From: Callorhinchus milii
Taxonomy: Eukaryota
Length of the DNA stretch: 64,000 nt
Reading direction: 5' to 3'
NCBI RefSeq assembly: GCF_018977255.1
Contig: NW_024704759.1
Coordinates: 7,068,001 to 7,132,000 of the forward strand
Shown one piece after another: positions 341 to 62,500 of this stretch. Position 1 is the stretch's first letter; each line of letters starts with the position of its first letter. Position numbers and translations under genes: made by a program. Under the pieces are notes generated by a model, which worked only from the letters and a program-made list of their open reading frames with translations, was not told the origin of the DNA and searched no databases.

Positions 341-1210
341 TCACTGATCTGCACCTGGGAAATGCCGCTTGGATTGGGTCCTGGAGTTGTGGTTCAACAC
401 GAACTGCCCCCCTTTGAGACAGCCAGCAGTCCAGACCTGACAGTGACCCACTGGGGCCGGGGGCAGGGGCTTGGGCTGAGCGACTGACCCCCGATTGCTT
501 TGCCCGGTGTCTGAGGTCGCCGTCTCCGCCAATGACCAGATCTTGGGCTTCTGTGAGGGGTTCGATCCCATCTCCATCGCCACCATCTTCTCGCCCGACC
601 CTTGGTCCCTTGTCCTGGCCTCACCCTCGGGTCCTCTGCCTCTCGCCCCAGCCTTGCCCTCGAGTCCACAGCAAGGTCTCTCCAAACCCAAGGTACCTTC
701 ACAACCGCCGAGCGGGTGAGGGGGTGCCTGGTCTCTTTTATCCTTGTTCTTCTGATCTCCTCTCATCTCCACCTCCTCGTCCTCAACCTCCTCCGCCTCT
801 CCCTCCTCCTCCTCTTCCTCCTCCTCCTCCTCTCTTCTCTCCCCCTCCTCTTCGCTCTCGCTTTCCTCTGCGTCCGACTTGCTCTTGGGGACCCAACTCA
901 TCTTGTTCTCCTTCTTCAGGCGCCTCCGGGCGTTTGCAAACCAGGTGGAGACCTGGGTCAGGGTCATCTTGGTGACTATGGCCAACATGATCTTCTCGCC
1001 CTTGGTGGGGTAGGGGTTCTTCAGATGCTCGTTGAGCCAGGCTTTCAGGGTGCTCGTGCTCTCCCGGGTGGCGTTCTTGGCTCTCCCCGGGTCCCCGTGG
1101 GCCACCGGCCGGTAAGGAGAGTAGAGAGCGGCGGAGGAGAGGTTGGCGGCTTGCGGATAAATGGACTTCAACTCATGCGGATAAACCGACTTCAGCTCAT
1201 AGGGACAGGC
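341..1210 (-). CDS. irx7: Irx exon 2 (ACPYELK... homeodomain, IRO box, stop)
   Basis: Acceptor ctctctcttctctag|GCC at 1211/1210, in frame with ORF 341..1171. YELK motif as at the start of Irx1/3 exon 2. TGA at 343-341. Confidence 0.93.
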
Positions 1211-3352: not shown

Positions 3353-3393
3353 CACCAGCACTGCCGCGGCTGTGCGCTGCGCCGCCCGTGTGT

Positions 3394-3407
3394 GGGTATA
3401 TATACCC
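3394..3407 (-). promoter_or_regulatory. Putative Irx TATA box (palindrome GGGTATATATACCC)
   Basis: The only AT-rich motif in a GC-rich stretch, about 45-50 nt upstream of the ATG. Confidence 0.6.
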
Positions 3408-3410
3408 TCC

Positions 3411-6190: not shown

Positions 6191-6265
6191 ATTCCCTTTT
6201 CCTTGTGCTGCCCATAATAAGGTAATCATATATAATCTTTGCATTTGACCCCAATAATAACAACA

Positions 6266-21930: not shown

Positions 21931-22861
21931 GCATGTAGCGGATTAAAACCTTTTTCTCAATATTCCAATCTGGTCACTGGAAGGTGTGTAAGAGCTGCCT
22001 AGAGTTTATATTTCTCTTTTCAATACCATTTTCACACAGGGAATAGAAATTGGAAGAAATGTAAATCCTGGATTGCCAACTTGTCCCCTGCCAAGGGAAG
22101 TTTGCTGCTGAAGCAGAGCAATCTCCAAGTTCCACTGAGTCATCAACTGTCTCGCAGGTACGATTTTAAGTTTGCTAACCAAGTTTAATGGCAGTTGAGT
22201 TTTCTTTCCAATGCCATAGCAGGTTTGAATCACTTCCCACATTCTCATATTGTTCAGTATAGACTACAGAGGGCAAGCTGATATGTTAATTTGCATTTTT
22301 TAAAATGTACTTTTATTAGGCAGAACATTTCAAGTGTGACTTGTCATCACTACCTGTTAGTCACTGCAGGGTTTCTGGACTCTTGAACATTAACCAGAAT
22401 TTAAAAAAAAACTTCTAATATTATCAAGCTGAGCAGCCCTGAAACATAGCTGCTGTGCTGTCTCTTCTTATTGTGGACAAAGCCACTTCAGTCAGCATTT
22501 GGTGTCTGTTGAGAAGCAGAACATGGGGAATTTGACACCCGAGTACCTGATCAAACAAGTTTGTTTTCACCTAGCCTGATCGTTTAATTTAAAACGCAAG
22601 GGTATCCTGCTATCCCTAAGTTTACCATCTTGTGAGAGAGGCTTTGAGGTCAATTGCTAATGTTCATTCATTAAACTATTTGGCAAAAAACAATCAGACT
22701 AAGAAAATTACAAACTAACCTATCCATAGTACCAGAATTGGATAGAAGACATGTTGCACTTTTGAAGTTCCTGTCTTCAGGTATCATTCAGGCCAGACAA
22801 CGATCCATGATGGGGAATGAAGCCAATTTCACTGTATCTTTACTAAGATGCTCACCTGTAT

Positions 22862-22867
22862 TTTATT
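22862..22867 (-). terminator. Possible Sowah polyadenylation signal AATAAA
   Basis: First AATAAA I found, about 490 nt after the stop. Others lie at 22312 and further downstream, so the true 3' end is unknown. Confidence 0.3.
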
Positions 22868-23357
22868 TTCCCTTTCCAATCGTCTTCCCTTAGCCCTCTG
22901 CTTTTCAAATACTTGGTCGTCCTCACAAGAAATGTTTAAAATCTAAAACCAAGAGACCAATCAGCTTGAAATTTTAAAGAACCTCGCCTCTTTGTTGGAA
23001 CAGTTTTAAATAGAAGGTGCTTTCAGTCAGCATATCTTAAGCAGCTGTACACTGTGGGTTTGGCTGGATAAGAAAAGGGCAAAAATGGACTGTACAAATG
23101 CTCACCTCAACTCAACCCACTTCTTGCACCTGACTTTTGATGGATGGAGGGGGAAGAAGACAAAATGCACGTAAAGGAATTCTGCACTTTAGGAAATCGC
23201 TGTACACAATGGCAAAACTGGGCTCTAAATAATTCAGTTGCTATGACATGTTGTCTTACTGGTTAAGTTCTCATTACTAATATTCAAGATCCCAAACTGA
23301 CATCTTGTAAATGGGATTGGTCACGATATCACACAGAACGAAGCCAGCAGGGCTAGT

Positions 23358-23539
23358 TTATCGGGAGAACTTGCGCGTAGCTTTGTATGTACTTGGCACG
23401 ATCAAATATTGGGAGGTTTCCATTTCAGCGGTTGCCAAGTTCTCTGCTGAACCCCACTTCTTACTGCTTCCACAACTCTTTGTCATAAAGAGGCCAGTCA
23501 GTTTTCGATTTCGTCGTTCTCCCCGAGACTGCTGGAATT
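23358..23539 (-). CDS. sowah2: Sowah last coding exon ([14 protein letters not shown]...KKWGSAENL...RKFSR*)
   Basis: cacttttcag| acceptor, open frame to TAA at 23360-23358. Confidence 0.85.
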
Positions 23540-26500
23540 CTGAAAAGTGAGACTGGGATGTTACATCATTTAAACAATGAAACAGAGAACAAAGGTAGAA
23601 CGCTAATTTTAATTAAATCTAAGTTTTGTAATGTACACACACAACAAATACACTAAAAATAAGGTGATGTAGTTTTTACCCCCAACACAAGAAAAGGTAT
23701 GAAAACTATTTATATAAGTTTTGTGAGTGGTAACCAGAGGATAAATAAATGCTTGTTGTGTGCAGATGATTGTTGTTCAAAGGCCTTTTAACATCAAATA
23801 TTAAAGGTCTAAATGGTAGAATCAAACAATTGTTTTTGCATAATTGGCAAAATCAATTGGTTAACTACTACAGTGTTAATATTTATCTCCAAAAAGTAGA
23901 CATCCAATTTTTGTGGCCAAATTTATTCCCTCCTGATTCTTTGCTGGAGTCTATATGGGTGTTGTTCACTCTTCAGTATTTCATCCCAGTCAGGACCTGT
24001 GACTTTCTACACTAAACGCTGCCATTACCTGCAATTGAGCATTTTAGACTTAAGATTTATCGAAAACATCATGCTCCACAATGAAAGCAATGAATACAAA
24101 TGAGAAAAGAGGCGTTACCTAGCAGCAAAAGTTCAGTACCTGATTAGAAAAGCAAATTCAAGAATTTCAGTTAGCATAATTTAAAATGTAAACTTTTAAA
24201 GGTAACATGCACCTCCATCTGTCATCACATTCTTTACTGGCAGCAAAGCATGGACTCGTTCTAATGGAATTCACGAGTGAGCACACCACCATGTTGGGTT
24301 ATACTGGTGATCAATAATTATTACTATTATTATTAGCTTGCTTTAATACCTGAACAGCAGACAACATTAATGACAGCAAAACTGAAAAGGGACCAGCAGA
24401 ATTAAAATGCACAGAATGGTAATTTTGTGAGTATTGATTGGCACAGCAGATCAGCTTAGATATCCCATGTGTGTTGCAAAACATTGCTTCTTAAACAGAT
24501 GCCAATGAACCTTTCAATTATAGTATATAACTAATGAGCAACAATAAAAAACTTTCATTAAATGTCACAACATTTTACAAACTACCAATTATGCTATTGT
24601 AACATATAGTGCATATAACATAGAACGTGTAAACAAGCTGTGTAAATGTGATTAGCAATTCTATGCAACATTACCTCGAATTAGCAGGTGTCAGCTTTGT
24701 ATTATACTTGCTAATATAGTGTATGTCAGCCTGGCGGAGTGGTAGCACTCAAGCCTAGGAGTCAGAAGGTTGTGGGTTCAAGAATAAAATGTTATTGAAT
24801 GCTTTGTAAATATCATACCCATATGTTTCAGAAAGCAATCCTATTATTGCTAGTGCTGAATGCGGTAAAAAGAAAAATTGCTGGATAACACCAAAAAAAT
24901 GCATTTATATAGCACCTATTATATCGGGAGAACATACCAAGGCATAACCACCAACCTGCCAGAACATTCAGGGGCTGAATTCCTCACACACTCTTGAAAA
25001 GAGCTATCCAAATCAATCCCGCTCTCTCCCCATAGCCCTGCAAACTTGTCTGCCCCAAATAATTGTCTATTTCTCTCTTAAAAGCTGTTATCGAGTCGGC
25101 TTCTACCACCCTTTCAGGCAATGCAGATCCGAACAACTCGCTGTGTGAAAAAATTTCTCCTCACCTCCCGTTTCTTTTAACAACTATTTTAAATCTGTGT
25201 CCTCAGATTACCAACCGACCTACCAGTGGAATTAGTGAATGACTAAACTGAATGTGATCAAAATAGTTTGAATCAGGTGCCATACCGCAAAGCCCCGTCA
25301 CCTTAATTGATCACATCAGTGACAACGCACTTTAGAAGAAAATTAAACTTGAATAAAATATCCACTAATTTGAATACCTGCAATAAGATTCAGCCATTAT
25401 TAGTGGTAAAGAACTTACGGGAAGAGATGTTTGAGGAACCACTAGACCCATCCTGGTCTTTCAGATAGTGAGCTGCAAATCGTCCACTATAGTCTCTCAC
25501 ATTTGTTTTGGCACCTGTTCAGGAAAAGGCAATATTAGACAATGCATTTACAAAACAATTCGCAAAAGCTACAGCGATGAAGTATTCATTAGTTTCACTG
25601 ACACAATTTAGTGTTAATGGATGAAGGAAAAAATTTCATGTTAAGCAACAGCTGGCTGGAACCTAGTACTTAATATGTAATAAAACTACAAAAGAAAACT
25701 TATTTAATTACTTTGCTGGAAATAATTTTAAACCATTAATAAAAGTACAGTACCACAGTATATAGGAAGTGCAGTTGAGTGAATAGCTTTCTCTTCAATA
25801 CTTTTTTCACCTCTTTATATTTCCTGAACTGGTTCAACTAGCACTATGTGCATCCTTCTACAGTATTTTCTCCCCACCGTCCCTCCTCCCTGCTGTCTCT
25901 TACAAAATCAAGGCCACGAAAATGGTTTTAAATTTAGAAACAGAAAGACAAAGGCAGTATGTTAAATGTGCTAGTCACACTGGTTCAGTATAGGCTTCTG
26001 ATCCAGTACAACAACAAGGCAACTAAGTTGAGCTCTGCCTTAAACTAGGCCTAATCCATACCTAACCCAGGAGTACTGGAGGAGGTCTGAGTTCAAAGCT
26101 GAAAATGGACCAGTAGGATCATCCCTCAACTTGAGGACAGATGGGCAAGAAGAAAATGTAAAAAGTGAGAGGGATCCAGAAAAGAGGTTAAAACAGGGAA
26201 AGGCAAATAAAGGGGATTCCTCCCCACCAAGATATTGTCCATACAAATAATTTGGCTCCTTGGCAAAGATATTGATGTACATAGTTATGTTTTACTAATA
26301 TGGGCATAATACAACAGATAATACATGGAAGGCAATGAATACCTCTCACTGAATTAAAATAGAAGAATTTAGATGGTGCAAATCATGAAAGTAACATTCA
26401 GATTCCAAACAAAGTACTTAAAGTAGGCTAAAATCTAAGTAGCTAAAAGACAATCCATCACATATACTATGAGTACTACTTGGTAAATCAAATCATTCAC

Positions 26501-29500
26501 TATTGAGTCTACGTACAGTTCAATAGGTTAAATGGGGGAGCTACTGTTGTGTGCACCTGTTGCAGCAATGAGTCTTGTCCTCAGATCATTACGTCCTGAT
26601 GGAGGAGGGAGATCAAACCACTGCTCCATCACCCATCGCTGGCATTAGCAGATAAATTGGTAGCGATGCAAATAAGATACAAACTTTTTTTTAGAAACAA
26701 TGAAGATAAAGTGACAGTAAGCAGTGTCCTGATGCTAACACAATGTACACGGACTTAAAGATTGGAATTAGAGCAAGTTTGCACTCAGCTGAATGTGATC
26801 CTTTGACAGCACCTGGAATTACATACAGAATCACTGCTAGGAATCACCATCATAATGAAAAAGTTCAGGTGGCATCAAACTGCAAAAGTGCCAACAATTT
26901 ACCTTCTAATTATGGAGGAATCTTCAACAATTTATTTATAAAGTACTGTACGTTTAGAAAATAGGGTTTATGTAGACATCAGCAGTGCTACATAATTGCA
27001 ATAAAATTCCTATCACATCACACATGCCAGGCTGCGCAGCAAAGCTCAGCACCTGTAGTGGGAAACAAACAGTGATAATGCAAAATTTCAATTCAAAATT
27101 CTTAATTAAGTTTGTTAATATCTTCTGAATATTAATTTCAGCCTTATTACAAGAATTATAATAATACAATCTTAATCTCATATCATGGGGACAAAAGGTA
27201 ACATTTTCAGTACATTGTGAAACATTCACATCAACAAGATGTGATACTAAATGTGCAAATCAGAAACTTACCATAGTTATTGATTAAAATGTCCATGATG
27301 TGTGTATGGGAATGAAGGGCTGCTATATGTAGTGGTGTGTAACCCTGAGAAAATAAATAATTATTTTTACTTCTATTTGCTAATGCCATGACAGTAATGT
27401 ACCAAATGACTTTTTTTTTAAAGACAAATAGGATACCTTTTATTTAGCTGACTACTAGATGACAAGCACTTTCACTAGATATCAAATCATGAAAGGGGGG
27501 AATATTGCCCTTGAAATCAGATGAATAAAAGGTAATTTATTGTATGATTTAATTCTTAATTTAGCACTGTAATCAAAATATCAAGTCACATAGAACTGGT
27601 TTCTCAAAGATCTTCAATACAAATGAGGCAAGTTTTAATTTTGCTGCTACAGAAAACATCCTGTGTTTGAAAGTGCTTGTAAATAAACAAGAAAAGGTTT
27701 GCCAGCCACACCACGTTTCAACATTAATTGCATTGGAACGTTTGCTTGGGAAAAAACAGTTTATGCTCCATTCTGAAAACTAGCGTTTGAACAAAAACCT
27801 TTTTCCCCCCATTGAGTCCCTTTCAGGTTTATAGAAAACTTGCAATTAATCCCAGTTGTAACATTAGATGCAAAATTAGAACATTCAAACAATAATTTAT
27901 CCTCCACACTATAGCGGAGTTGTCCAATAGGTTAGCTACGAGCCACATGTGGAAAATTGGGAATCCAGATGTGGCTAAATTGCATTTTTGATTAGTAAAT
28001 AAAAAATGAGAAATAGACCCCGCCATTGGGCATGTGATCTCAATTCTCCTTCTCGCACGATGGTGCATACTTTGATCTTTTTGTATGGTTGTTGGTAAAA
28101 TGGTAAGACGAAAAGCAGTGTGTGTGTTTTTTTTGATCATTGTGATTGCTTTACTTCCTTGGTTACTGCTGATTGGTGTGAAACACGGGTGAAAACCTTG
28201 TGAAAGAAAAATAAAGAGAAGACACGCCCCTACTCTGCATCCATAACACTGGGGGAAGCTGCTTGCCCTTTGCCATGACACCATGACTGAGACACAAAGC
28301 TAGAAGCTGTAGTAAGATGCACGGAGTCTGATAAATCCATGCCAGAATTCCAAACTTTGGTGAAAAAGAATGGAAAATTTTGCACTGAATGGTGGTAGAT
28401 GTTTGTTAAGTGAATATACATTGAAACATACATGTGAAATACCTGTATCGTGCGAGTGTCAAAAGGTGCGTTCTACTAAAATTAGTGTGTGTGGGTAAAA
28501 CGGTGTCGCAGCAATCACACTTGTGGTTATTCAGCGATTTCTATTGGACAACACTACACTATAGTACAAAGCACAATACATTTTATAAACAAAAAGCAAA
28601 TATTTTCTTAACATACTTTACACCCTTAATATTGCAGTGATATGCGATGAAAAGCAAAATAAAGTCAATTATCAAATAAAGAAGCAAAAAAAATGACAAA
28701 AAGTCATGCGATACTCACTCCCTACAACAGAAGCGAAAGACAAAACGATCATCACAAGTGGGGAGGGAAATAAAAAAAGTTGAATCAAACAATTGCTCTT
28801 TAAACAATTTCATTTAACACTTTTGAAAAACATTGTTCCATTTTGAGCCTCATTCCTGCTTCCCCCCCACCCCACCACATTTTAAGATTTTCAGGATCAT
28901 CATTAGAAATATTTTGTGCAACTTGCTCTAATGCCCGTAACATCCTAATGCCTATACAACATCACCCAACAGGGAGAAGTGTAGTTAAAGGGGGTGCAGA
29001 AAATGTCCACTTCTACCCAGGCAGCAGTGTTAAAGTAGGCTTGACCACTATTATTCTCACTCAATCCCACTGGCCAACTGCAGATCGAAATCAATAATTG
29101 TGGCTTCAATTAAAACTAGATTGACACCATCGTATTTAAATTTGATTGAAATCATGGTACGTTTTAACAATTTGGGAGTAATCTCTTCTCTTTGTACTTT
29201 GGCGGTGGAGAGAAGAAAGGCAACAAGTGCAGCTGGAAAACAGCTCTGTGACACACCATAAGTTACTTCTAAGAACTATGGAAGAGGATCTTCCAAGTCA
29301 AAACTTCCCTTCTCTCAGAGACCAAGTCAAGACTGAGAGGCTCAGCCACTCAGCAAAGGTTGAGAGTGAACATTAGCCAACTCAAACGTTAATATAGGTC
29401 AGAGATTGACCCCGTACTATTGTTGGTTTTAAATGTCATTTACTGAATATGTAGCCAATTGTAAGATTTGTTGTTTAATTTGTCATTCATTAGTTCTTGG

Positions 29501-32500
29501 TTCCCACTTTCAAACATTTACGTTCCTATTACTAGATTGAAACATAAGGAACTTAGTACCGGCTATTATTTCTACCAATTAAAAAAGCACTTTGAGGACC
29601 CACAGTTGTCAATGATAGTGTGCTCTGCGAAATATAAGAAATAAAATCATAATCACAATCTAAATTTAACAACAAAATCTGTGATTCATGCAAATAAATA
29701 AGAAGTTTGTTTGATTTGACTTACATGCTGCATTTATCCATCGATTAGCAGGGAGCAAAGAAAGAGGGAAAAAAAATCAGTTTTTTTAATTCATTGCAAC
29801 ATTATGCAATACCACAAACTAAAAGAATGGAATAAACATCTTAAGTGTATGATGAGTTCTGTTCAGCTGTCTCTGCTCCATCTCAATGATCTCCATACTC
29901 CATACAAGCCTGATCGGTACTTGGCTCTTGATGCTCATGGTTGATTGTATGTGGCCAAAGCAATATTCATTTCCTTAATTTGCCTTCTGCAATTCTGCAC
30001 ATATGTAATTCATTTCCATTATGTACAGTTTAAGTAAAAATTATGTAATTGTACTAAAACAAAGTAGGTGTGCGATTCTAATGAAAAATACGTAGAGTGC
30101 TTCAGAGTGAAACCTTTAAAGGTCAAAGTACACTGCTTTTTCCCATAGGGGAAAGAGAAGCAAGAAATGAAGACTTCAGATGTGGGATGTTGCTGTGTTT
30201 ATATTTCCCAATTGAGATGTGCTCTTGGCTCTCTGGTGTCCTGGTCACAAACATCTAGCTTTAATAGCAGATTGTAAGATTAAGAACCAGTAAGAATTAG
30301 TTACTGTAGGGGTTGAACTGGGAATGATCAAACAATATTCTAATAAAGAATAGTGATTAATGATTAGCATCAATCCTCATTTGTATTAATAAATGCCTAA
30401 CTATTATTTACCATTTTTACCTTGCCAGAAACAGTGGTTGTAAAAACAAAATGTACTGGTGAGCTGATTCACAGCCAAATATTAAATGTAAAATTGCAGA
30501 ATTGGATATGATTTAATATAATTCAACTAATTTTTGAATAAAAACAATTTAGATAGGAACAACTTCATGCCAATCTCCACGATCAGATTTTATTTTTTTG
30601 TGTAACAGTCAAGGCTTGCAACAGGAAAGCTTGTAAATCATTTCTTTATTTGAGTCTTACAAATCAGGAATAGAAAGAATTAGTTGGTTAAACTTTCAAA
30701 CTACTTGAAACGGAATGAAAAACATAACAGCTTTGTTTCGATCTCGCATAATTCCACTGTTCTGGCTCATAAAACATCTGTAAATTGTGGCTTTCTGTAC
30801 ATAAATCTATAGATTGAGTATTGTGCTTCCATGGATTCTGACAACTGAATGCAACTGGTAAATTAGAAACAAAAGGCTAATGTGGTTTTGTTTGAACATA
30901 GCTGTACACTTGACCAGGTTGTCAATATTGCATCACATCTTGGGCAAGAGAACAAACTGGTCACACATCTAATAACATAGAAAATATACTTCACATCCTA
31001 TTCTTAATTACCCTTTTTTAAAAAAGTAGTGATGAATTTAAAAACATTCACCATTAAAAATACTGCAACATTTGCAAATGACACTTTATGATGACACTCA
31101 CTTTTTGGCAAGACTAACAATAAAAACGGATGCTTTGCAGGTTTAAAAGAAAGTAAACTAATGTTTTGAGTTTTCACAGATTAACTAGAGTTTGCACAGC
31201 AGAGGAAGGCAGCATATGGAAGGCTAATGTGGTTGAGCACATAATAATAATCCTTGCATTGGATATAGCGCCTTATCACATCTTCGGGACCTCTTAAAGT
31301 GCTTCACAGAATATACTGAAAAGTGAATTGACTGTATATTTTGTGGGTGAAACGCAGCAGCCAATTACTCACAGCAGTGTCCTACAAACAGTCGTATAGG
31401 AGAGAACTAAAGTGCAAAGTTTTCTAATAAACGTGTAAAAATGAATTCATATAATACTGTAAATGGGTTTCACACTATAATCTGAAAGTCATGGGAGCCA
31501 CAGCATACCAAAGGACACAAGACTGTCTGTTGAATAGCTACTAAAGATGGATGTAAATCTTAGAAAACAAGAAAGCTTAGAAAGAAAAATATCGGACAAA
31601 AGATTCTTGCTAACACATTTGGCTGAGTAGCATATTATTTGGAAGGCGGAAGAATTACCTAAAGGTATTTTAGTTATACTGTATTTTAAAAGATTGAACA
31701 GAGAAAGAGGCAACTCACTGCTCTGCTGTTGATATCGACACCAGCCATTATTAACAGGAGCGCCATGTCCTCTTTGCCATGTTTAGCTGCCCAATGTAAT
31801 GCAGTCTATAAAAACAAATAACTTCATGTTAGAATACCAACAAACTTGTAACTAATAATATAATTACAGTATAGTCTACACAACACAAGCGTTCAACAAG
31901 TGTTACTGCATGCTTATTTGTGTTGTTCTTAGCATCAGAGATGAAAGTGAAATTTGAAAATAGCTGGAACAGTTCAACTTTTGAGGCACTACGCTATTAC
32001 CATTGGTTGATAGAATAAGAATTGCAGTGTTTGTATTTCTTGGTAATGGTGTGAAAAACACTACCTAATAAAGAGAAGTGAAGCCTACAGTGAGTACTTC
32101 CATTACTACAGTATTCTCCACATGTATTGTAGAAAGAAATCAAAGACCACCACCCACTCTTACTCAAGTTCACTTGAATTAACGGCCTTGCAAACATTCT
32201 CTCTCGCATGTGAGAAACGTTTTCAAAATGTTAGAATGAGGTTAAAAGAAAAAAAAGGGAACAGGGACAAAAAAAGCAAATAGAGGCATCGTTCTTAGAA
32301 TGTTTATTTAAATAGCATTTATTTTAGTGACTCGGTGCTAATATTACATTAAATTAATTATAGCATCAGAGTGCATGAACTAAAAACATGCAGAGACCCA
32401 AACGAGTATTTGAATAAACCTACCAGGACTCTAACAGTTATAAAAGATGGAAAGCCGCGGGGAAAACTTCCATTACTAGTAACTTTGTAGCTCGCTACCC

Positions 32501-35500
32501 TGGTACTTTGAGCATGTTCAATTTAGCAAATCATTTCCTCTCCCATGGAGATCCACAAATTCAAGACTATTTTTACAGTATAGTGTATTGCTAAACCAGC
32601 CAACTTAATTTCAAATCTCTGATTCCAACACCGATATATCCTTCCAATACTGTGAGGCAATAACGGAGATGCAGAACTAACTTTTCTCTTTCATTAATTT
32701 TGCATTTCATCTACACTCCTGCGACAGATCATTCATGCCTAAATAATTTAATAAATAAACACAAGTATTTCTGTGCCACACAGAAACACGTTGTGGATGG
32801 ACACTGTGTATTCCTCTGCTTCACCAAAACAGTAACCACTTTTTCACACAAGTTTTAGTTTTTCTGCATTTTTGATCCAATTTGTACTATATTTTACACT
32901 TGTGGTATTTACACTAAACGTGTTTTTCTGAAAACTAGTCCAGATTGTGGCAGCAAATCAAACAGAAAACAGCCTCCCTCGTACTCTGCAATGTTGTGTG
33001 GATGATTGTGGCCTTTTCTTACATTTTATTTTCTGTTTCCACTGGCGGGTGTGCAGGGCTATGGGGAGAATGCGGGGAGAATGGGATTGATTTGGGAAGC
33101 TCTTTTCAAAGAGCCAGTACAGACACGATGGGCTGAATGACCTCCTTCTGTGCTGTATAATTCTATGATTCACATAGCACCAGCTTAAAATTACCGCAGT
33201 ATTCACTTTCTTTGCACTTTTTATATCTGAATGAGATTTATAGATTTTTTTCCCTTGAATTAACATTAATGGAGATTCAAATATCAATTTGCACCAATTT
33301 AGAGATGATATTCCAGTCACATAATTTACACCTTATTTGCGTCATAAGCATTCACTAATAACTGTATTTTGCTGTAATACAGTTGCAAAACGCAATAGAA
33401 AATACGTCAAAAACTGCACCAAAGTACAAATTATTCAAATTCAAACAAATTAAAGGCCGAGTTTTTTGTTAAAAAAAACTACTAATGCACAAGACTGAAT
33501 AAAAGCAGGAATTAAAACTTCTACTGTAACAAAGGAATTTATAAACTTTTTAAAAGCAGCATTCTGAAAACTTTTTGCTATTGTACAATAATATATAATC
33601 ATTATTTTAAAATAAAGGCTAACATTTACCAAAGCGCACTGTTGCTGATAACCCTATGAAACGTGCCTGCCTATTACCAGCTGATCAGGTTATCTTTTCC
33701 CTGGAGCCCATGTGTTTGTAGTGCGCCGTCTGTTTCATTCTGGATATTTCCCTGAATTTGCCAGCTGCATAGGGAGTGTACATACGACATTTCCTGCACA
33801 TTCGGCCAAGCTAATTACAAAACAACAAACCAAGCGTGCCTCAAATGAAGCCAAGGTGTAAGTGCCTGTCAGGGCTGATGATTGATTATGTTTACTGCGA
33901 CCCATCGGCTGCTAGGAACAGGGCCCCAGTTATACTCCCAGCCAGTGTGAATGTCACAACTACAGCGTAATATTTATGTNAAAAAAATGATTTTAGTGAA
34001 TGAAAGAAAATCAAGGTAATTGCGAGGGACTCGTTAGACACCCATGAGAAGAAACATCCACTACCAGGCGATTTATTTTCACGAGACATTATTATTACCA
34101 TCACATCATAATTGAACATATTTTCTAATTGTCTCCCGCTAATCTAAATATACAATACGAGCTGTGTTTTGGACAGCGATTTATACAGTTTTACCCTAAG
34201 GTGTTGAGTTTGGTTGTTGATGCATGTGGCAAAGACATTACTGAAAGAGTATAAGATAGTTTTAGGATTCATTTGCACACTTATATATGAATACATATTA
34301 TACATGTATCTGACCATCATAGCCATAAACACTTTCTCTTGCACACTTGAATGTTTTTGGAACTTCCCCCAGAGGAAAGAGAAAACCACAAGAGCCCCCT
34401 GAGCCATTCACATGCCCCCTATTGGCTAGTCCGAAAATAATAATAATAATCCTTGCATTTTGATATAGCACTTTTCACGTCGGGAGGACGTCCCAAAGCG
34501 CCTCACAGAAGACACTGTAAAGTGAATTGACTGTATATTTGTTGGCGAACGCGGCAGCCAATTGCGCACAGCAATGTCCCACAAACAGTCGTAGATTGAA
34601 AATGACCAATTTATTATTGTTTTTGGTTTTTGGAGGGATTATTATTAGGCGTGTGGAGTAAGGAAACTTGCCCAAGGTTTCGCCCTGATCTGCCTGGAAT
34701 TGAACTCAGGTCTCTCGCTTGCAAAGCGAGTGCTCTAACCACTGAGCTACAGGACTCCGAAAATGGCATTAGAGGTCAAAGTATCCACAGTTCAATATTC
34801 AGGAGGGAAATCTAGAGTATGTATTCTTCAATTGGAGGGAAGCACTATCATCTAATCATATCAAACCTTTCCATTATATTATAATTTATGAACAAGTATA
34901 TCTTAAACTGAGTTCATCAATGAGTTTTGCCCAACTCCATGTGGATTGTATGTCTTTGCAAAAGAGGCTGATTCAGTACGAATGATCTAAGGGTAGCAAA
35001 CCACATCTTCTGTTTAGTTTCTTAACAGCCAAGTCTTCAGATTTAGGCTAACTGGGTACCAGTTTTTGCAGACTTCCCAGGGCAGAAGGTCTGCCTTGTC
35101 TGGTAGAATGAGTTACAGAATCAATGATTAAAGCTTTGGGATCTCCAAGTGTGAAAACCATTATCTTCTACATAAAGGGGAGAATTACAAAAGCCTCACT
35201 TGAGCAGAGCCCAGCAGAGTGAGGAAGGAACTGAGTGAGGTGGAACAGAGTGAGAATTCTGTTAAGGAATTTGGTGAGGGGGAAGGCGGTGCAGGTGTTG
35301 CAGAAATTGTGAGATGTTTGCCTTCCAGGCCAAATTTTGAATGGATTCATCTGCATTAACTGAAAGCTAGTAGACTCACTCAAGGCTGAAGTGATCAGCC
35401 TTAGCAAGCGACTGGCTATGCACCAAAGTATTAGGGAGGGAGAAGAGTTTATGAATGATGTATTAGAGAAGACCTTGCTGGGGGCACAGTAGAGGAGTCC

Positions 35501-38500
35501 CCGGTACCTAGAGGAAAGGATTGGGTCTCTGTTAGGAAAGGGGCCAGAAGTCGTGGTCGGCTAATGGAGCAGGAACGGACATCCCTGGTGCTCTCCAACA
35601 GTTTTTCTCCTCTGGAGAGAGATGATATGGAAACCCAAGTGATGGCTGAGACAGGCAAGAGAGTGTGGTGCACTGAGGCAATCCAGCAGCCTGCCAAGGA
35701 AGGAGGGAAGAGAAAGAGTAGCAGACAAGTTGATATTAGGGGATTCGACTACTCGGTTCACAGATCGCATTCTGTGCAAGCCAGACCGCCAGGAAGGTGG
35801 AAGGCGAACTAGATGGACCTTGGTTTTTTTGCGTCTAGCATTTCTTATGTTCTCTGACAGAAAACAAACCCAGTTTTCATTAGCACAATGCTATTTTAGA
35901 TAATAATCTGAGGACGTTCAGTATACAGCAACATTTTATGTAAAAAGATTCAACAAACCATTTGTTTCTTAAAGCAAAAAGTTCAAATAAACTCACTTCA
36001 TGAATATTTTTCTAATTAGCAAATGTGGATTATACTTACAAACTTTTGTCAAGCAGTATCAAAAAAAGGTATTTTTTGAACATTGGAGAAATTGGCCATA
36101 ATTCACAAGTTTCCAGAAGATGTGCATTCAGGAAATAAAAGGAAAAACAAGTTATTAGTCAGAACACACTTTGTTTTCAGTACAGTGCATATAAAAAATT
36201 TAAACTTCTGAAAAACGCAGTGCTTGGACGACAGACATCATTCTAAACCCAATTTGTTTTTCATGTTTGCCTTTTAGCAATGATCATTGGAGACTGAGAA
36301 GGAATGGGAACCTTTGTTGATTTTTTCTTCTGTAACCTGTGAAGGCAAACTAGTGTCTCAACTACTGTCTCAAATGAGATTGCTAACTTAGACAAGACAA
36401 GACTGGGTATTGGACTATGACCTTCCAGGGTATAGAAATTTGTGTTGCACTACAAAATAAATTTGTGTCTTCACTACAAAAGTCCTTTTCAATATCTTAA
36501 TTTTATTTAGACTTTTTAAAAAAGAACATTCTAATTCTTTCTCCTAAACCTAAACTTCAAAAAACATTTATCTTTTTTTCAGCTTCCATCACGTAGTTTG
36601 GGGAAAAAACAGCCTTACACCTAATGACCAAGTCAAGATATTGAAGAAAGACATTGTCACATCATATATTCTGCACAACCAGGTCAATCATTGATTGGCA
36701 CTAGGCGAGATCACAGGATGAAAAGAAAAAAGATTTTTTTTAAAAAAAAGATAAACAGAAAAAAAATCATAACTAGTTGGGTGCGTCTGTCGATAGCATC
36801 TTAAGTATTAAGAAAAAGATTGCATACTCTGACTCTTATATGGGGTCAGAGTGCCAGTACCATCACTTTGTCAATCAAGAAACAAGCACGAGAGCACAAG
36901 TCATTTTGTTTCTCATCAAATTGTGACATTATTCTGAAATAATTAGGAAAGTGCATTCTCTGAAGCAGAACTTAATGACTGAAATCACTGGTATACACAA
37001 GAATTTAAGCATCTTCAATATCACAGTTCATCTATACAGTAAAAATAGCATTAGAATGGTCATTCGCATTGCGTGACACGACTCCAAAGCTGATCACTGA
37101 AAGAATACATCAAAGACCAAGACAGACACTTGCTGAACTTAATTCCTCTCAACATGAGGTTCTCCTACTCTTAATGTAGATTCTCTTTTATCTATTATTT
37201 GCAGATTAATTGAAAGACCAGGATTATCCTTGCAGAAGCTATAGGAACCAATAATCTTTCGCACATCAGTCACAACTATGTATTTCGTCAGCTACTGAGG
37301 TGGAGCTGGTTTGCTGTGCCATCACGCAGAAGGTGATTTTTAAAAAAAGTTATTTTTTTACAGCTAACACCCTTTTTACTTAAATTCGAGTAAAAAGTGT
37401 TAAGGTTTATTTTAAATAACTAAATTCTGTCGAGTCACAACAGAAAGGGCAAAACAATGTAAACCATGTTTCTCTTAAATCTAAAAATAATAAGGACTTC
37501 GGGGAAGACCCTGCATCAAAACAGAATCATTGGCTGGAGAAGCCCTTTTATGGGACAGAAGAGGGCATGATTGGTTTCAGCTTTGTGTGCAGCTGCTGAT
37601 GTTCTCAAAAACAGCCCTGGCTTTGCCAGCAAGTGCCAAACATTGAAAAAGTTGGTAGAAATAAAGTTTGAGGATATTTGTATTGAAAAGCTAGGCAACA
37701 CCAACAATATAAAACAATCTAAAACAGTTTGAATTTTTATTTCTTACTATCAATATATGAATAAAAATGGATGGAGACGGGAAGAGTCAAATTGCGATTG
37801 ATTTGACAGCGAACTCCAGTCATTCACAAGCGGTTTCGGACTGTCAATCAGTAAGGGGCGGAGGAACAGGGAAGAAACAAAGGAGGGAATCGTGACTGAT
37901 TGACAGCTGGAGTAATGGGTGCCCATCCATTCACAAGCACGTTCAGGCTGTCAATCACCTGGGCAGGTAGAGAACTTTGGTTAACTTAGGACGGCGCTTA
38001 AACCGGACAAAACTGCCACAGGCGTGTCAGGCTTAAGCGGCTTCCACTGTATTTACCAAGGATGAATATATTTACTCATGTTTAAAGTAGGTTACAAGAC
38101 GAGTTGAATTACATGTCATATGATTTTCCAAAGTGGTTAAAATACATGCGTCAGGATTCCCTGAACACAAACAAACCTGAAAAAAAAATGTTAATCGGCA
38201 GGCACTTACCCCCTGATATTGGTCACATTGTTCCAACATTGGATGCCAAATACATCACATCCATTCCATTCCCAGCAGGACAGGAAAAAAAAAGAGCAAA
38301 ATACTTTTCAGTGAGGAAGCTATATACAATATATGTAAAGGAACAGAAGAATAAATATTCCTGAACCATCAGAGATTGAGACAAAACATGCAAAAATACA
38401 TTAAAGGCCATCATTATTGTAATACTCAGAATGCATTACACACAAAAGTTTCACATTAAGAACAAGTTTAAGTACATATTGAATACAGATTTCTTCTATT

Positions 38501-41500
38501 TACAATGTACAACAATGTTTATACACGCACATTTTACAGGTACATGGGAAAATCTGAGAAATGAAACAAAAATTCAATTGGCTACCAACCTCTAAATAGC
38601 AAGATAAATAATTTACATTCTTGTTCTTCTAACATACACACTTCAGTACATTAAACAGAATCTTGTTCAAAGTCACAAATTGTAAAATGCAGTAAAACAC
38701 ACTCAAGTGCTTTAACGTCTAACTTATGATGAAATAACAAGCTGATTGGGATATAAACTAAGTGAACGTGTAAAGTAAATTCAAGATAATGGATTCAGCA
38801 TTCCAAGCAAGCGGTAGAGTATGAATGATGTCACTTACAGAGGTGAAGTCCTAAGGGTTTTCAATCAAGAATATATGCAAAATAAAAATAAAAAAACAAT
38901 ACCTTTATATATTATCGAGGTCGCATACAAAGCATATTACCTGCAGTTACCTGCACATTAGCATAAACATGCTATATTTAATATCCCATTTAATGTGGCA
39001 AACAGATGTTGAATTTGCACATTAATTCCTGTAAATCAGACACCTGTCCAGAACACAGTAACTTATTTGCATTAAAAAAGTACAATGCACATGGTCACGC
39101 TTCAGTTGTGAAATTCTTCCCCTTTTCTCGGTCAATTGAGAGAATACACCTCCCATCACTGATCACCTTATATTTAAAGCTATAGATTGTGATTTATTTA
39201 TTCACTGAGCCACTGGGAAAGTTCCCAACAATTCTTAATATGACAAATGTCAATTTTAATAGATATTTAATTAAGAGTTATATGCATTTAAAACAAGTTT
39301 GTGGAATGTAAGTTCAAACATGTAAAAACACATTTTATTGGTTAATCAATGATTTTGTATTTTGGGAAAAGGTGTCAATTTTTAATTCATCTGTCCAATT
39401 TATAAAGAGGTAAATTTGCCTCATCGTCTACCTTTTTCACCGCCAGAGATGGATCCTGACTGAGAAGATCAGTCAAAGCTGCTAACTGTCCACTTGCTGC
39501 ACACTTCAGCCATTCCTTTTCCAAAGGATCCAACTGTAAAAATGAACCAAGCAGAAGTACAGCCCATTTAAAGCACAATTCTTAAAATCAATGAGAATGT
39601 TATCCTACACACAGATCAGTTTTAATGCAACCCAATGGAGTACAATTCACAAGAAAATGCTCCAGACTAACATACCCAAATTTTGAGGATGACTGAACAG
39701 CCCAAGGTGTTGGAACTTCAGCACACTGTACCACATACTGTCATAATGCTGAATAGTGTTCATAACTCCCACCTACTGAGCTCCTGATCTCAACCACAAC
39801 ATGAAGATGTGGCAAGCAGTTGCCAGGCACTTTCCCACAGCAAAGATGGAAAATCTGAGCCTCATCAGCCCAGGCTACTTCAGTGTACCTCCTGGCAGGA
39901 AACTCCGCATTGGGATAGTAATGAGATCAGGTTTGGCCAGGATAGGGCATAACACAGGAACAATTGATAGGAATAGGAAGAAAACTAATTTAGAAATAAT
40001 ACATAACAGGAAGCCTAATTTATACTTCAGCCACTATCAGCCACAATCTGCAAATAGAAGAGTCTAAGACAAATGTGACTTTTTGCTGTACCATAACCTC
40101 AAATTCCACAACACACTAATAATAATGATTATGGAGTATTGCTTTAAGAGCAAGCAGAGTCATTCTTTTTCCAGTTGCAGTGCTCCAAGGATCAAATAGC
40201 GTGTTTATATTACCAAGTCTATGCCGCAATATGTCCAGGATAGATTGCTGTCTCGCATGAATGGTGAAGTAGAGACCCACCCACCCCACCATTGGCGGGA
40301 GAGCCTTCAGCCACTCTGCGCCCAACCTCTGGAATTCCATCCCCAAGTCACTCCGCCTCACCCCCTCCTTAAAGTCCCCACCTCAAGACCCCCCTCTTCG
40401 ACTATCCCATCGGCCACCACCCTTGCCCTCCCTTACCCCCCCAAACCCCAGTTCGGGTCTGAAATGCTGTACTCTGTCCAGCGCCTTGGGACGTCCTCCC
40501 GACGTGAAAGGCGCTATACAAATGTAATCTTGTGGTTGTTGTAGTAGAAATCCAGCTGAATTATGCACTTCAATCTCATCAACATGAAAACTTATTCTTT
40601 GGGGTATGTTTCATACTGGTATGAGTTTGGAAGCACTGCAATGTAAACTTGGCAAGATCCCAAGCTTGTTTTGTCGACTGTTTTAAACAGTGAGCCTTCT
40701 GTCTGCGTGGATTTTGTTTTCAGAGATGACTCCGCTTATGGACATGCAAGTTCTAAAGACCTGACCTGCCAGGAGGGTTTACATTATGTAACAAATCATA
40801 AATGTTAATTGTTCAAAATTACATATACGTACCATTAATATGAAACTAATCCTCTTCCCATTTTATAGAATGATTTCACTTTATGTTTACTTCCCTGGCA
40901 TGTCTACCTCTTCCCTGTTCCATCTCATCAGTTTCTTACTTGATCACTTTGAATGCACGTGTACGTGAATGGCAGTCAAAACACACAATCCTTACTTTTC
41001 GACTCCCGCTGAGAAAGAGCAATGTGAATGGAGACAATCCACCTCATTCAGTATTCAAAACAGACATTGCACTAGCATGCTAATTATGCCAACTCTGGTA
41101 TCCGTTTGGAGTACTAAGCTTTCTGAACTCTGGCAATGTCTGAATAATATGCTCTCAAAAGTAGTTCTGAACATTCAAGGTTGTGCCCATCCTTATACAG
41201 AACCACATCAATAGCACAAGCTAGTCCACAATCAGAAGGGGAAACTTCAGTCTAACCTGAAGCACTTCAATGCCAGGGCAATGCCTCAAATTATTAGAAA
41301 CTAAAATCATAAATTTTAGAAATGTCAGCTTTTTGAAATGCTGGACTGTGTAATGTAACACTACTTGAATCAGAGTGTTACCGCAGAGAAATAGGCCATT
41401 CTGTCCATCTAGCACGTACTATTTTATGGCAAAAAGTTAGTGACCCATTTTCTCAGCCACAATTTATTACCAAAAACAGGGTATGATTTGTCCTAGACTG

Positions 41501-59500: not shown

Positions 59501-62500
59501 AGGGCACTATATAAATCCAAGTTCTTGCTGTTGTTGCAATTGGGAGGACTCCTGTGGGAGGACTGTAGCTCCCATGACAACCCAAAAAAGCTACCATACA
59601 TTTGTTGGAGAATATATTAGTATAGATGTATCTCTTTAGAAGGGTGTGTGCTTTCCTCTGTTGCTACTTTGTTGCACAATACCATACAAACCTCATATTT
59701 TGGGGTTTAATTGAAGCATTTTTTAAATATAGCTCATCAACGATAGAAGAGCCCCGAAAAAAAAACCATGACGCTCCTGCGTGCAAGACCTTTCCGATGG
59801 AGAATAAATCATTTCTCTATGTCAATCAGTTATTGTGTTGGCGGAAACACAGAGACACAAACCACTCATCTTTATTAGTATAGATGATGTTGATATCTAC
59901 TGAATGATAGTGAAATACTCTACTGGTTATTTCTTACTCCCCTAAGCAAGAACAGACATTTTAGCTTTTACCTTACATTATTTTAGTTATACATTCTTTC
60001 CAAGCTTGAAAGATATTGCTACCCCAAACTAATGCTGTCCCCAGGCAGTGAAGTAGGCACTAACCAATGTACCTTTTTCTACTGTGTATCCATTATCAGT
60101 GCAATAAAAAAAACTGGTGGAGCAGGATGCAGGATGGAGCACATTGCCACAGAACTGGTTTGCAATCGCGTGACATCGCACGCCTGATAATAATCCCTCA
60201 AGAAAAAAAATAATTTCGGCACTCAATCAACGACTGTTTGTGGGACACTGCTGTGCGCAATTGGCTGCCACGTTTCATCCACAAAATATAGTCAATTCAC
60301 TTTACAGTATATTCTGTGAAGAGCTTTGAGATGTTGAGAAGTCGTGAAAAGTGCTATGTCAAATGCAAGGATTATTATTATTATTTGATAAGTTCCCAGG
60401 TTTGTGACACATCAGAAAGCTAACCACCCAAACTTTTATTTAGATTAACCATCTCTCTTTAACTCACCTCTTTTTACCTATTATACTTCTCTGTGCACGC
60501 TGTTGCACAATAGTGCAAACGTACAAAACCTGCCGATACTCAGGATTCACAAATAAAGAATGGCTGAATGAGTGAAGTACTGGAGGCTTGACAATACCTG
60601 GAGAACCCAGGATCAGTCAGCACCTTAACTATTGGAGGGGAGAAAATTGGATCCACAATTTTGTGCTCAAAAATCAAGCTATTGAAGTCTGAAAATAAAC
60701 TTTCTGATGAATGATGAAGATATATATTCGAAGAATTTTTTGAGGCGAATAAGAGAGGCTGTGCGCTTTAATTATGTTCTTAGAATTTCTAAACCAAGCA
60801 TTACAAGGATGGTGATTACATCCAAATAATTAACCTTGATCAAAGACTATTACTGAACTTTTATTCTGACAGCAACATTGTATGAATGTCATACATTACA
60901 ATGCTGTGAGGGAATAATAATTGTATTGTGCAAAACAAGATGGCACCATTACAAAAGGAATAAGAATCTACAAATGTTGCTTACATTTAAGTAACCATTA
61001 ATTTGGGACTAGGATTCTGTTATCAATGAAGATTATATTCGACACAGTTCAGACTCTACCAAGACATCAAGGGATCGTAATATGTAATAAAGAACATAGG
61101 TCATAAAGGGTTGGCTGGAGCATACACTGCAGTATATGTAATGCAACATGAAATATGAGGTGGAAGGGTCCATAATGTAACCTTGTACAATATAAACTGA
61201 ACCTTCAGGAATTAGAAGTGATGTAATGACCTTTTGTACCACATAAATTCTGCCTCAAATAACACTGAGCTAATTCAACCAGTTATACTTCCATTGCTTC
61301 ACCCCACTGGAACACCAAAGTGTTAGTACCCATAACCTTCTCCTTTATTTCTCATCTGCTTACCAATACAATCCCAGCCCTTCAATCAGCCTCAGTGGGT
61401 CTCCACACCATGCTGGAATATGTCTGTTTACAATCCTCAGGTAAACAACACAACTTTTTTCCCTTTCCAATATGAAATTCTCCAGGAACTCACCCAATTC
61501 ACATATACTTTGATGCTGAATACTTCAGAACTTTAGTAATTCATCCCTCCAGCTGCCCAACCATATTCAACTGAATGTGTAATGTAAGTATTATTTTACA
61601 TTTTATAGCTCTGGTCATGGAAAGTTCAGTGTGAATCATTTGCGGGCTCGAAGAATATTAACCTGACATCTTTTTTAGTAAACCATCCCTCCCTCACGCA
61701 ATCTCTCTTTATCTCTAACAACAGCTTTATCTACAAACTAACACAAGAATCCAACGCTTGTCAGAGAAGCTAAAACAGGAAGGGTTGGTGGGCCAAGCAT
61801 CACTTGTTTTTTAAAAAAATATAGTATAAGACCTATTTATTTCCAGCCAAAACAGACGTCACGCTTAAACGCCTCTCCAATTTCCGTTACCTTTACTGAC
61901 CCTTTTTAAAAAAAAACAAGTCCAATGAATCAGTTGAGTATCAACAACAACAACAAGATTGCATTTATGGAGCGCCCTTCACGTCGGGAGGACATCCCAA
62001 GGGGCTGATGTATCCATCATGTGTCATCTAGTTTTGAAACGGTGTAGAAATTTACAAAACGTAAGCAAAATTGAACAGGTTCCAAGAAGACAGGGGGTTA
62101 AGTGGAATTTATTTGGGGCCACGTTGGTGAGTCCGCAGCACTGCAAGGCCCAATGACAGACCACCTACTCACCACAGTCCAGCCACTATTCCAGCACACC
62201 CCACCACCCCCGAAGTCCAGCCTCACCTATTTCCCCCCCCCTCCCCACAGTCCAGCCACTATTCTAGCCCCCAGCCCCACTGTCCATCCCACCCTCACCC
62301 CCCCACCCCGTCCAGCCCCCCACCTTACCCTCCCACTGTCCAGCCCCCCACTGCCCGGATCCCCCAATGTCTGTCTGCCCCCCCCACCGTCCCCCATCGT
62401 CTGCCCCCCCCACACTGGCCAGCCCCCCCACCTCACCGTCCCACTGTCCAGCCCCCCCCCCCCCACTGGCCAGCCCCCCCACCTCACCCTCCCACTGTCC

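What the first reader, a model, noticed from the sequence alone, without database searches (positions are those of the whole stretch)
28719..38900. SRRM3/4-type acceptor architecture suggests regulated, combinatorial tuning of the ankyrin binding surface
Seen: several microexons have a pyrimidine tract set back from the AG with a TGC between them. CAT exon: ttttttccctctttctttgctcccTGCtaatcgatggataaaTGCag. TTT exon: tttttttgatacTGCttgacaaaag. DFTS exon: ttttatttTGCatatattc...cttag. All five donors are near-consensus GTRAGT. Established: UGC motifs near the 3' splice site mark SRRM3/SRRM4-dependent neural microexons, and ankyrin beta-hairpins form the ligand-binding face. Inference: every microexon is frame-preserving and phase 0, so up to 32 isoforms differing only in hairpin length are possible. 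The intronless retrocopies would have lost this switch. The GGA exon has no proximal TGC and may be regulated differently.
Basis: partly seen in the sequence, partly recalled or inferred. Interest (0 to 1): 0.7.

Follow-up and report, generated by a model that had tools for sequence, protein, structure and literature searches.

The report
Always-on single-codon exons in Sowah
A cartilaginous-fish ankyrin gene (Sowah) spells six amino acids of its predicted binding loops with five tiny exons, four of them one codon long; assembled RNA, its retrocopies and the fruit-fly gene keep them in, so this is likely an old fixed layout rather than a nerve-cell switch.

Summary
The five microexons are real (12, 3, 3, 3, 3 nt, minus strand). 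They lie in the intron-containing Sowah gene next to an Irx gene. The quoted sequences, GTRAGT donors and phase 0 are correct. The acceptors are unusual: AG-free zones of 50-124 nt (long exons 11-52) with the pyrimidine tract set back 26-85 nt. TGC close to the AG is not above chance (3 of 5, background 0.53); TGC just behind the distant tract is (4 of 5, post hoc). The regulatory reading fails the tests I could run. Every informative RNA contig carries the exons (His+Gly in 5 of 7 runs laid, first three in 3 of 7, no skipped form seen; tissues unknown). All 4 intronless retrocopies froze the fully included form. The fly counterparts are published as constitutive in head, body and gonads. Among 35 assembly-derived orthologue proteins the only skip is the last Gly (2 proteins, zebrafish cluster), the exon without TGC. 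So: near-constitutive microexons, perhaps two isoforms, not 32. SRRM3/4 help is not excluded. The scan found this layout before in other genomes.

The parts
38839..38850 (-). Microexon 1, 12 nt, codes D-F-T-S (residues 276-279 of P0125)
   Evidence: AG/GTAAGT; in RNA contigs of X1, X5 by letters and X4 by record arithmetic
38210..38212 (-). Microexon 2, 3 nt GGG, Gly280
   Evidence: same contigs as microexon 1
36040..36042 (-). Microexon 3, 3 nt TTT, Phe281; AAG acceptor
   Evidence: same contigs as microexon 1
31719..31805 (-). 87-nt exon TALHW...INSRA between the two microexon clusters
29725..29727 (-). Microexon 4, 3 nt CAT, His311
   Evidence: in contigs of X1, X5, X7 by letters, X3 and X4 by arithmetic
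28719..28721 (-). Microexon 5, 3 nt GGA, Gly312; no TGC in its AG-free zone; the only exon whose counterpart was seen skipped elsewhere
   Evidence: included in the same 5 runs as microexon 4; absent in P0270 and P0273
38853..38902 (-). AG-free zone (50 nt) of microexon 1; U-rich tract ends 26 nt before the AG, TGC at its end
38215..38303 (-). AG-free zone (89 nt) of microexon 2; tract ends 69 nt before the AG, TGC 6 nt behind it
36045..36168 (-). AG-free zone (124 nt) of microexon 3; branch-point-like CTGAC/CTAAT at -120/-116, tract ends 85 nt before the AG, TGC 3 nt behind it and at -13
29730..29818 (-). AG-free zone (89 nt) of microexon 4; CTGAT at -53, tract ends 29 nt before the AG, TGC at -30 and -23
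28724..28795 (-). AG-free zone (72 nt) of microexon 5; tract ends 38 nt before the AG, no TGC
39432..39533 (-). 102-nt exon LDPLEKEW...LAVKK upstream of cluster 1
27272..27344 (-). 73-nt exon GYTPLH... downstream of cluster 2
25419..25514 (-). 96-nt exon
22303..23539 (-). Last exon (coding to the stop at 23358, then 3' UTR as far as the X1 contig reaches)
46803..63349 (-). Five 5' exons of the gene: 63349-63204, 58604-58543, 57802-57497, 53625-53479, 46859-46803 (winged-helix domain and linker)
   Evidence: with the downstream exons they translate to the tail of P0125 exactly
341..1210 (-). Irx homeobox coding stretch downstream of Sowah on the same strand

Best explanation
These are five spliced microexons of the intron-containing, Irx-linked Sowah gene that are likely included in nearly all transcripts of all tissues, so they build the two ankyrin inter-repeat loops rather than switch them. 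How it likely works: an exon of 3-12 nt is too short for the 3' and 5' splice-site machinery to sit on both ends at once. Each exon therefore pairs a near-perfect U1 site (GTRAGT, shown) with a branch point and pyrimidine tract moved 26-85 nt upstream inside a long AG-free zone (tract and zone shown; branch points predicted). The spliceosome assembles at the distant tract and the first AG downstream is the microexon's own (inferred). A UGC behind the tract may add an enhancer in four of the five (inferred). The last Gly exon, which has no UGC here, is probably the leakiest; skipping it would shorten the second loop by one residue. With all five in, the two TxLH motifs are 33 residues apart, the standard ankyrin period (shown).
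For: RNA contigs of this species: X1 joints carry TCCATG (=CAT+GGA, depth 270.6) and AAACCCAGAGGTGAAGT (=DFTS+G+F, depth 256.3). Loose ends show the same in X5 (all five) and X7 (CAT+GGA). X4 record 26 has 279 letters between two anchors = all five in; X3 record 17 starts at 206 = CAT+GGA in. That is 5 of 7 runs laid, 3 study codes. The only other X1 branch at that exon is unspliced sequence at depth 6.9. P0125 has all five. Retrocopies: 4 of 4 intronless copies in G000 keep all five positions; 116 of 120 SOWAHC proteins could be anchored and all 116 have one spacing. Orthologues: 35 of 35 Logan-only proteins (89 contigs) have DFxSGF; 32 (83 contigs) have HG, 2 (5 contigs) lack the last G, 1 reads into the intron. 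The paralogue on C14 has the same five microexons with long AG-free zones in 4 of 5. Fly sowah exons of 12, 3 (GGC), 3 (TAT) and 6 nt (AACGGG) lie in the same order and are all in the constitutive sheet (PSI=1; head, body, gonads, embryo, larva, adult) of PMC8042270 Table S5. D276, F277, G280, F281 are conserved in 90% or more of 52 aligned proteins. Ungapped 33-residue alignment to ankyrin-1/2 repeats; loop position in the AlphaFold model.
Against: Contigs drop rare variants and the tissues are not on record, so skipping in a minority of transcripts or in an unsampled tissue would be missed; X2 was undetermined and X6 had nothing laid. The acceptor anatomy is the one published for SRRM3/4 targets, the post hoc TGC test is positive, and two SRRM_C-domain genes exist in the genome. 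Two RefSeq models of this gene lack the last Gly and a third model lacks all four 3-nt exons; 110 annotated orthologues vary widely at these positions. I read that mainly as annotation error, because some show donor read-through (SVS, VSI), but cannot exclude real isoforms. Pfam ankyrin scores do not fall clearly on skipping (Ank 57.7 all in, 58.5 without the last G, 52.6 without four), so 'skipping breaks the fold' is not shown. The fly exons are matched by order, length and residue type, not by alignment.
Confidence: 0.72

Rival explanations
1. SRRM3/4-assisted but saturated: the exons need SRRM3/4 (or a related UGC-binding activity) but are so sensitive, or the gene is so confined to SRRM3/4-positive cells, that bulk RNA shows only the included form.
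For: Long AG-free zones, set-back tract and TGC behind it in 4 of 5; strong donors; a published model in which sensitivity is set by core signals (bioRxiv 2024.09.17.613571); SRRM_C genes present; the exon without TGC is the one seen skipped.
Against: Retrocopies must come from germ-line or early-embryo mRNA (established) and are fully included; fly counterparts have PSI=1 in body and gonads and are not in the eMIC lists; in the paralogue the TGC-less exon is a different one (first Gly).
Confidence: 0.18
2. One reading: neural, SRRM3/4-dependent, independent inclusion of each exon yields many isoforms (up to 32) that tune the binding surface.
For: All five are phase 0 and frame-preserving; they code loop residues; annotated orthologue models differ at these positions.
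Against: No skipped contig in this species; cluster 1 complete in 35 of 35 assembly-derived orthologue proteins; constitutive in fly; retrocopies fully included; Gly280 and Phe281 are the G-x of the ankyrin G-x-T-x-L-H motif.
Confidence: 0.05
3. Only the last Gly exon is a regulated cassette (two isoforms, second loop of 33 or 32 residues per repeat), by a route other than UGC/SRRM4.
For: P0270 (4 contigs) and P0273 (1) lack it against 16 contigs with it in the cluster that holds Danio rerio records; RefSeq models of this gene and Latimeria isoform X2 lack it.
Against: Included in all 5 informative runs of this species; seen skipped in only one species cluster; the fly has His/Asn+Gly in one constitutive 6-nt exon; could be strain variation or noise. 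This rival is compatible with the best explanation for exons 1-4.
Confidence: 0.3

Closest known systems
Drosophila melanogaster sowah (FBgn0036302) microexons ME119, ME3, ME2, ME19 (FlyBase-annotated; PMC8042270 Tables S4, S5)
   Same: Same gene family, same order and sizes 12, 3 (Gly), 3 (aromatic) then the second loop; listed as constitutive.
   Different: The fly codes the two residues of the second loop in one 6-nt exon; here they are two 3-nt exons 1 kb apart. Homology judged from order, size and residue, not aligned.
Irx-Sowah genomic regulatory block and its intronless SOWAHA-D retrogenes (Maeso et al. 2012, PMC3317147; seen only through citing passages)
   Same: Multi-exon Sowah beside an Irx gene, a second multi-exon copy inside the C14 Irx cluster, four intronless copies elsewhere.
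   Different: Nothing essential. I recall that the paper also shows the conserved microexons, but could not read it.
SRRM3/SRRM4 (eMIC)-dependent neural microexons
   Same: Size, frame preservation, strong donor, long AG exclusion zone, set-back tract, UGC behind it in 4 of 5.
   Different: The defining behaviour, skipping outside neurons and dependence on SRRM3/4, was not seen: included in all informative contigs, in retrocopies and in fly non-neural tissue.
Exons with distant branch points and AG exclusion zones (PMC1431707; search listing and start of abstract only)
   Same: Long AG-free zone with the tract far from the AG.
   Different: Here tied to 3-12-nt exons in tandem; branch points not mapped.

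Membership tests
SRRM3/4-dependent neural microexons | 3-27 nt, frame-preserving | tested here: met
   12, 3, 3, 3, 3 nt, phase 0
SRRM3/4-dependent neural microexons | Strong 5' splice site | tested here: met
   GTAAGT x4, GTGAGT x1; judged by consensus match, no MaxEnt score. Six of the nine long exons with a donor also have GTRAG.
SRRM3/4-dependent neural microexons | Long AG exclusion zone with branch point and tract far from the AG | tested here: met
   50-124 nt vs 11-52 nt, P=0.003; tract 26-85 nt back; branch points only motif-predicted
SRRM3/4-dependent neural microexons | UGC between tract and AG | tested here: inconclusive
   Proximal count at chance level; post hoc tract-anchored count 4 of 5, P=0.028; published as present in 74-79% and not strictly needed
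SRRM3/4-dependent neural microexons | Skipped outside neural/endocrine tissue | tested here: not met
   Indirect: included in 5 of 5 informative runs of unknown tissue, 4 of 4 retrocopies, fly PSI=1 in body and gonads
SRRM3/4-dependent neural microexons | Inclusion falls on loss of SRRM3/4 or of the UGC | not testable with these tools
   Fly eMIC-knockout table lists only another, 46-nt sowah exon; no 'sowah' in two zebrafish supplement searches (12 of 18 files in the second; gene may bear another name)
Intron-containing Irx-linked Sowah | N-terminal SOWAH winged helix plus ankyrin repeats | tested here: met
   PF25877 and ankyrin families precomputed for P0121; ankyrin hits (PF25877 not returned by that library copy); two confident domains in the model
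Intron-containing Irx-linked Sowah | Multi-exon gene adjacent to an Irx gene | tested here: met
   15 exons; Irx homeobox at 896-1093, one of 7 in the genome
Constitutive microexons (PSI about 1) | Included in all tissues | tested here: inconclusive
   Consistent for exons 1-4; contigs cannot give PSI and tissues are unknown; exon 5 counterpart skipped in 5 of 88 scorable orthologue contigs

The most novel reading that the evidence does not exclude
Sowah carries microexons with the full SRRM3/4-type acceptor anatomy that are nevertheless on in every tissue: a natural always-on end of the microexon sensitivity scale, kept since the fly-vertebrate split, with two pairs of consecutive single-codon exons. 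Within it, the one exon without UGC (last Gly) is a real cassette that gives a second isoform with a loop one residue shorter.
Probability: 0.3. Interest if true: 0.5.

Novelty: already known. Interest (0 to 1): 0.25.

Why it matters
As found, it is a known gene with a layout that FlyBase already annotates, and the proposed neural switch is not supported. Two things keep some value. First, genome annotation garbles these exons: only 36 of 110 annotated orthologues have the right spacing in the first loop, against 17 of 17 assembly-derived ones in the same search. Second, tandem 3-nt exons that look like SRRM4 targets yet appear constitutive would be a clean natural substrate for asking what makes a microexon independent of SRRM3/4.

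Tried and rejected
A sixth candidate, 31113-31102 (12 nt, SCQK, AG/GTGAGT), is in no contig that joins 31719 to 27344: rejected as a pseudo-exon, as are the other short AG..GT hits. Proximal-TGC enrichment: at chance. 'Any TGC between tract and AG' (4 of 5, P=0.125; 8 of 10, P=0.025) is weak because the length-matched expectation is 0.33-1.0. Pfam scores of skipped against included forms did not discriminate. A single-sequence fold was poor (pLDDT 41) and was replaced by the alignment-based one; Foldseek returned generic ankyrin/DARPin matches. The search of 50% representatives was swamped by long ankyrin proteins and gave no invertebrate Sowah that I could identify. P0385 ends in donor read-through and was dropped from the cluster-2 count; 4 of 120 retrocopy proteins and 2 of 110 annotated orthologues had no anchor. 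Cluster look-ups list at most 15 members, so some unnamed members of three clusters were not seen. Literature: 'sowah'+'microexon' 0 papers; six-term search gave no paper among the 30 listed of 251 that joins the gene with microexons in its main text; 'microexon'+'ancient genomic regulatory block' 0. Maeso 2012 and Torres-Mendez 2019 are not held, so absence from print is not shown. No earlier notes near this place.
Full report
Setting. The stretch lies in a 15-exon gene on the minus strand (63349 to about 22300). Its exons translate to the tail of P0125 exactly, a public SOWAH-family protein labelled Callorhinchus milii. An Irx homeobox lies downstream on the same strand. The genome holds a second multi-exon copy inside a three-gene Irx cluster on C14 and four intronless copies on C4, C15, C13 and C1. 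This is the Irx-Sowah block with its retrogenes as described in passages that cite Maeso et al. 2012; the paper itself is not held.

The observation. Five microexons sit at 38850-38839, 38212-38210, 36042-36040, 29727-29725 and 28721-28719. They are phase 0, with donors GTAAGT (four) and GTGAGT (one). They spell K-[DFTS]-[G]-[F]-TALHW and SRA-[H]-[G]-GYTPLH. The quoted acceptor strings are correct. TGC near the AG is not enriched: 3 of 5 within -40..-6 against a background of 0.53 (P=0.56), 2 of 5 within -25..-6 against 0.37 (P=0.60); adding the paralogue gives 6 of 10 and 5 of 10 (P=0.46, 0.29); long exons 3 of 9 and 2 of 9. What does stand out is the AG-free zone: 50, 89, 124, 89 and 72 nt against 11-52 nt for the nine long exons (P=0.003); the paralogue has 124, 30, 177, 71 and 103. 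The best pyrimidine tract ends 26-85 nt before the AG in all five. A TGC lies directly behind that tract in four of five, all but GGA (7 of 10 with the paralogue; background 0.29 in 185 matched sites; P=0.028 and 0.009), but I defined this test after seeing the sequences. Published passages name these features for SRRM3/4 targets (PMC8797185; bioRxiv 2024.09.17.613571; PMC12871342). The last paper reads the longer branch-point distance as a way to give physical space regardless of UGC.

Are they spliced, and are they skipped? Fourteen runs were listed, none on record as RNA; I laid seven. Joints end in CT..AC at the predicted exon edges, so these contigs come from spliced RNA. X1 carries CAT+GGA between 31719 and 27344 (depth 270.6) and DFTS+G+F between 39431 and 31805 (256.3). 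On a repeat-free stretch around the middle exon, X1 and X5 show all five and X7 shows CAT+GGA; the only other X1 contig there is unspliced, depth 6.9; X6 had nothing laid. Record coordinates give all five for X4 (279 = 96+73+6+87+17) and CAT+GGA for X3. X2 has the joint but its letters were cut from the table. So cluster 2 is included in 5 of 7 runs and cluster 1 in 3 of 7, from three study codes, and no skipped form was seen. Contigs drop rare variants and tissues are unknown, so this shows that the included form is the one retained, not that PSI is 100%.

Evidence from relatives. All four retrocopies in this genome keep DFxxG[FLY]T and two residues before GYT; 116 of 120 SOWAHC proteins could be anchored and all have one spacing. 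A retrocopy records a germ-line or early-embryo mRNA (established), so that mRNA had all five exons; the copies may go back to a single event (recalled from Maeso 2012, unverified). Of 35 orthologue proteins known only from Logan contigs (89 contigs), 35 have the first loop complete, 32 have HG, two lack the last Gly and one reads into the intron. Both skips are in the cluster that holds the zebrafish records: 5 contigs without against 16 with. Genome-annotated models vary freely and include donor read-through, so I do not count them as isoforms. In the fly, FlyBase-tagged sowah exons of 12, 3 (GGC), 3 (TAT) and 6 nt (AACGGG) lie in the same order. All are in the sheet of 128 constitutive microexons, defined as PSI=1 over head, body, gonads, embryo, larva and adult (PMC8042270; text parts 2 and 3 of 4 and table rows seen). 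The eMIC-knockout tables of PMC8797185 name sowah once, for a different 46-nt exon further downstream, classed eMIC-sensitive. Searches of two zebrafish supplements found no 'sowah' (12 files, 12 of 18 files), which says little because the gene name may differ.

Protein. In the alignment-based model (52 sequences, mean pLDDT 68.7, 84-97 over the ankyrin part) residues 276-279 and 311-312 lie in the loops between helix pairs and G280-F281 start the next helix; DSSP calls no strands there. The fully included sequence aligns without gaps to ankyrin-1/2 repeats with a 33-residue period, and D276, F277, G280 and F281 are at least 90% conserved. That these loops form the ligand face is established for ankyrin repeats and was not tested here. 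Pfam scores did not show that skipping damages the repeat.

Mechanism. Shown: splicing, inclusion in every informative contig, strong donors, long AG-free zones, set-back tracts, conservation in paralogue and orthologues. Inferred: the distant tract and branch point leave room for recognition of both ends of a 3-nt exon, and the AG-free zone makes the microexon's AG the first one met; this yields near-constitutive inclusion without a neural factor (0.72). SRRM3/4 help at saturation remains possible (0.18); both regulator genes appear to be present. The 32-isoform neural switch is unlikely (0.05). The last Gly exon may be a true cassette (0.3, compatible with the main reading).

Novelty. The gene, its linkage and most of the layout are known; the exons are annotated in the fly. 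Library searches found no paper joining Sowah with microexons in its main text, but the key paper could not be read. Earlier notes of this scan report the same layout in sharks, a ray and octopus and mostly read it as fixed; they are not independent support and did not change my reading. Verdict: real feature, already known, proposed regulation not supported; interest 0.25.

Noticed in passing
window 63345-63343 (minus): One C more than P0121, P0124 and P0125 imply just after the start codon, which shifts the frame in this assembly. Probably an assembly error; model P0123 uses another start. Not checked with reads.
   Followed up: partly
G000:C14:10716029-10689533 (L012-L014): Paralogous Sowah with the same five microexons (DFNS, G, F, H, G) inside a three-gene Irx cluster; the Phe exon shares TACTGCT with the window's copy about 13-15 nt before the exon.
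   Followed up: yes
proteins P0131, P0135-P0146, P0154, P0208, P0263: Proteins of the intron-containing Sowah type are recorded in caecilians, a newt, turtles, ducks, geese, swan and a lizard, although a citing passage says the parental gene was lost in tetrapods. Loss may be confined to some lineages; synteny not checked.
   Followed up: no
P0270, P0273 vs P0269: Zebrafish-cluster transcripts lacking the last Gly microexon, 5 of 21 contigs.
   Followed up: partly
fly chr3L:12538996-12539041 (PMC8797185 Table S2): A 46-nt fly sowah exon downstream of the ankyrin microexons is eMIC-sensitive; no counterpart was seen between 25419 and 23539, where all four runs splice directly.
   Followed up: partly
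window 896-1093 (minus): The neighbouring Irx is a lone copy on its contig, against two clusters of three on C2 and C14; Irx7-like by recall.
   Followed up: partly
window 31241-31400, 33050-33170, 34436-34760 and similar: High-copy interspersed repeats in the introns that draw very deep contig cover.
   Followed up: no
window 3200-6250 and 62200-63000: Long low-complexity tandem arrays flank the Irx gene and the first Sowah intron.
   Followed up: no
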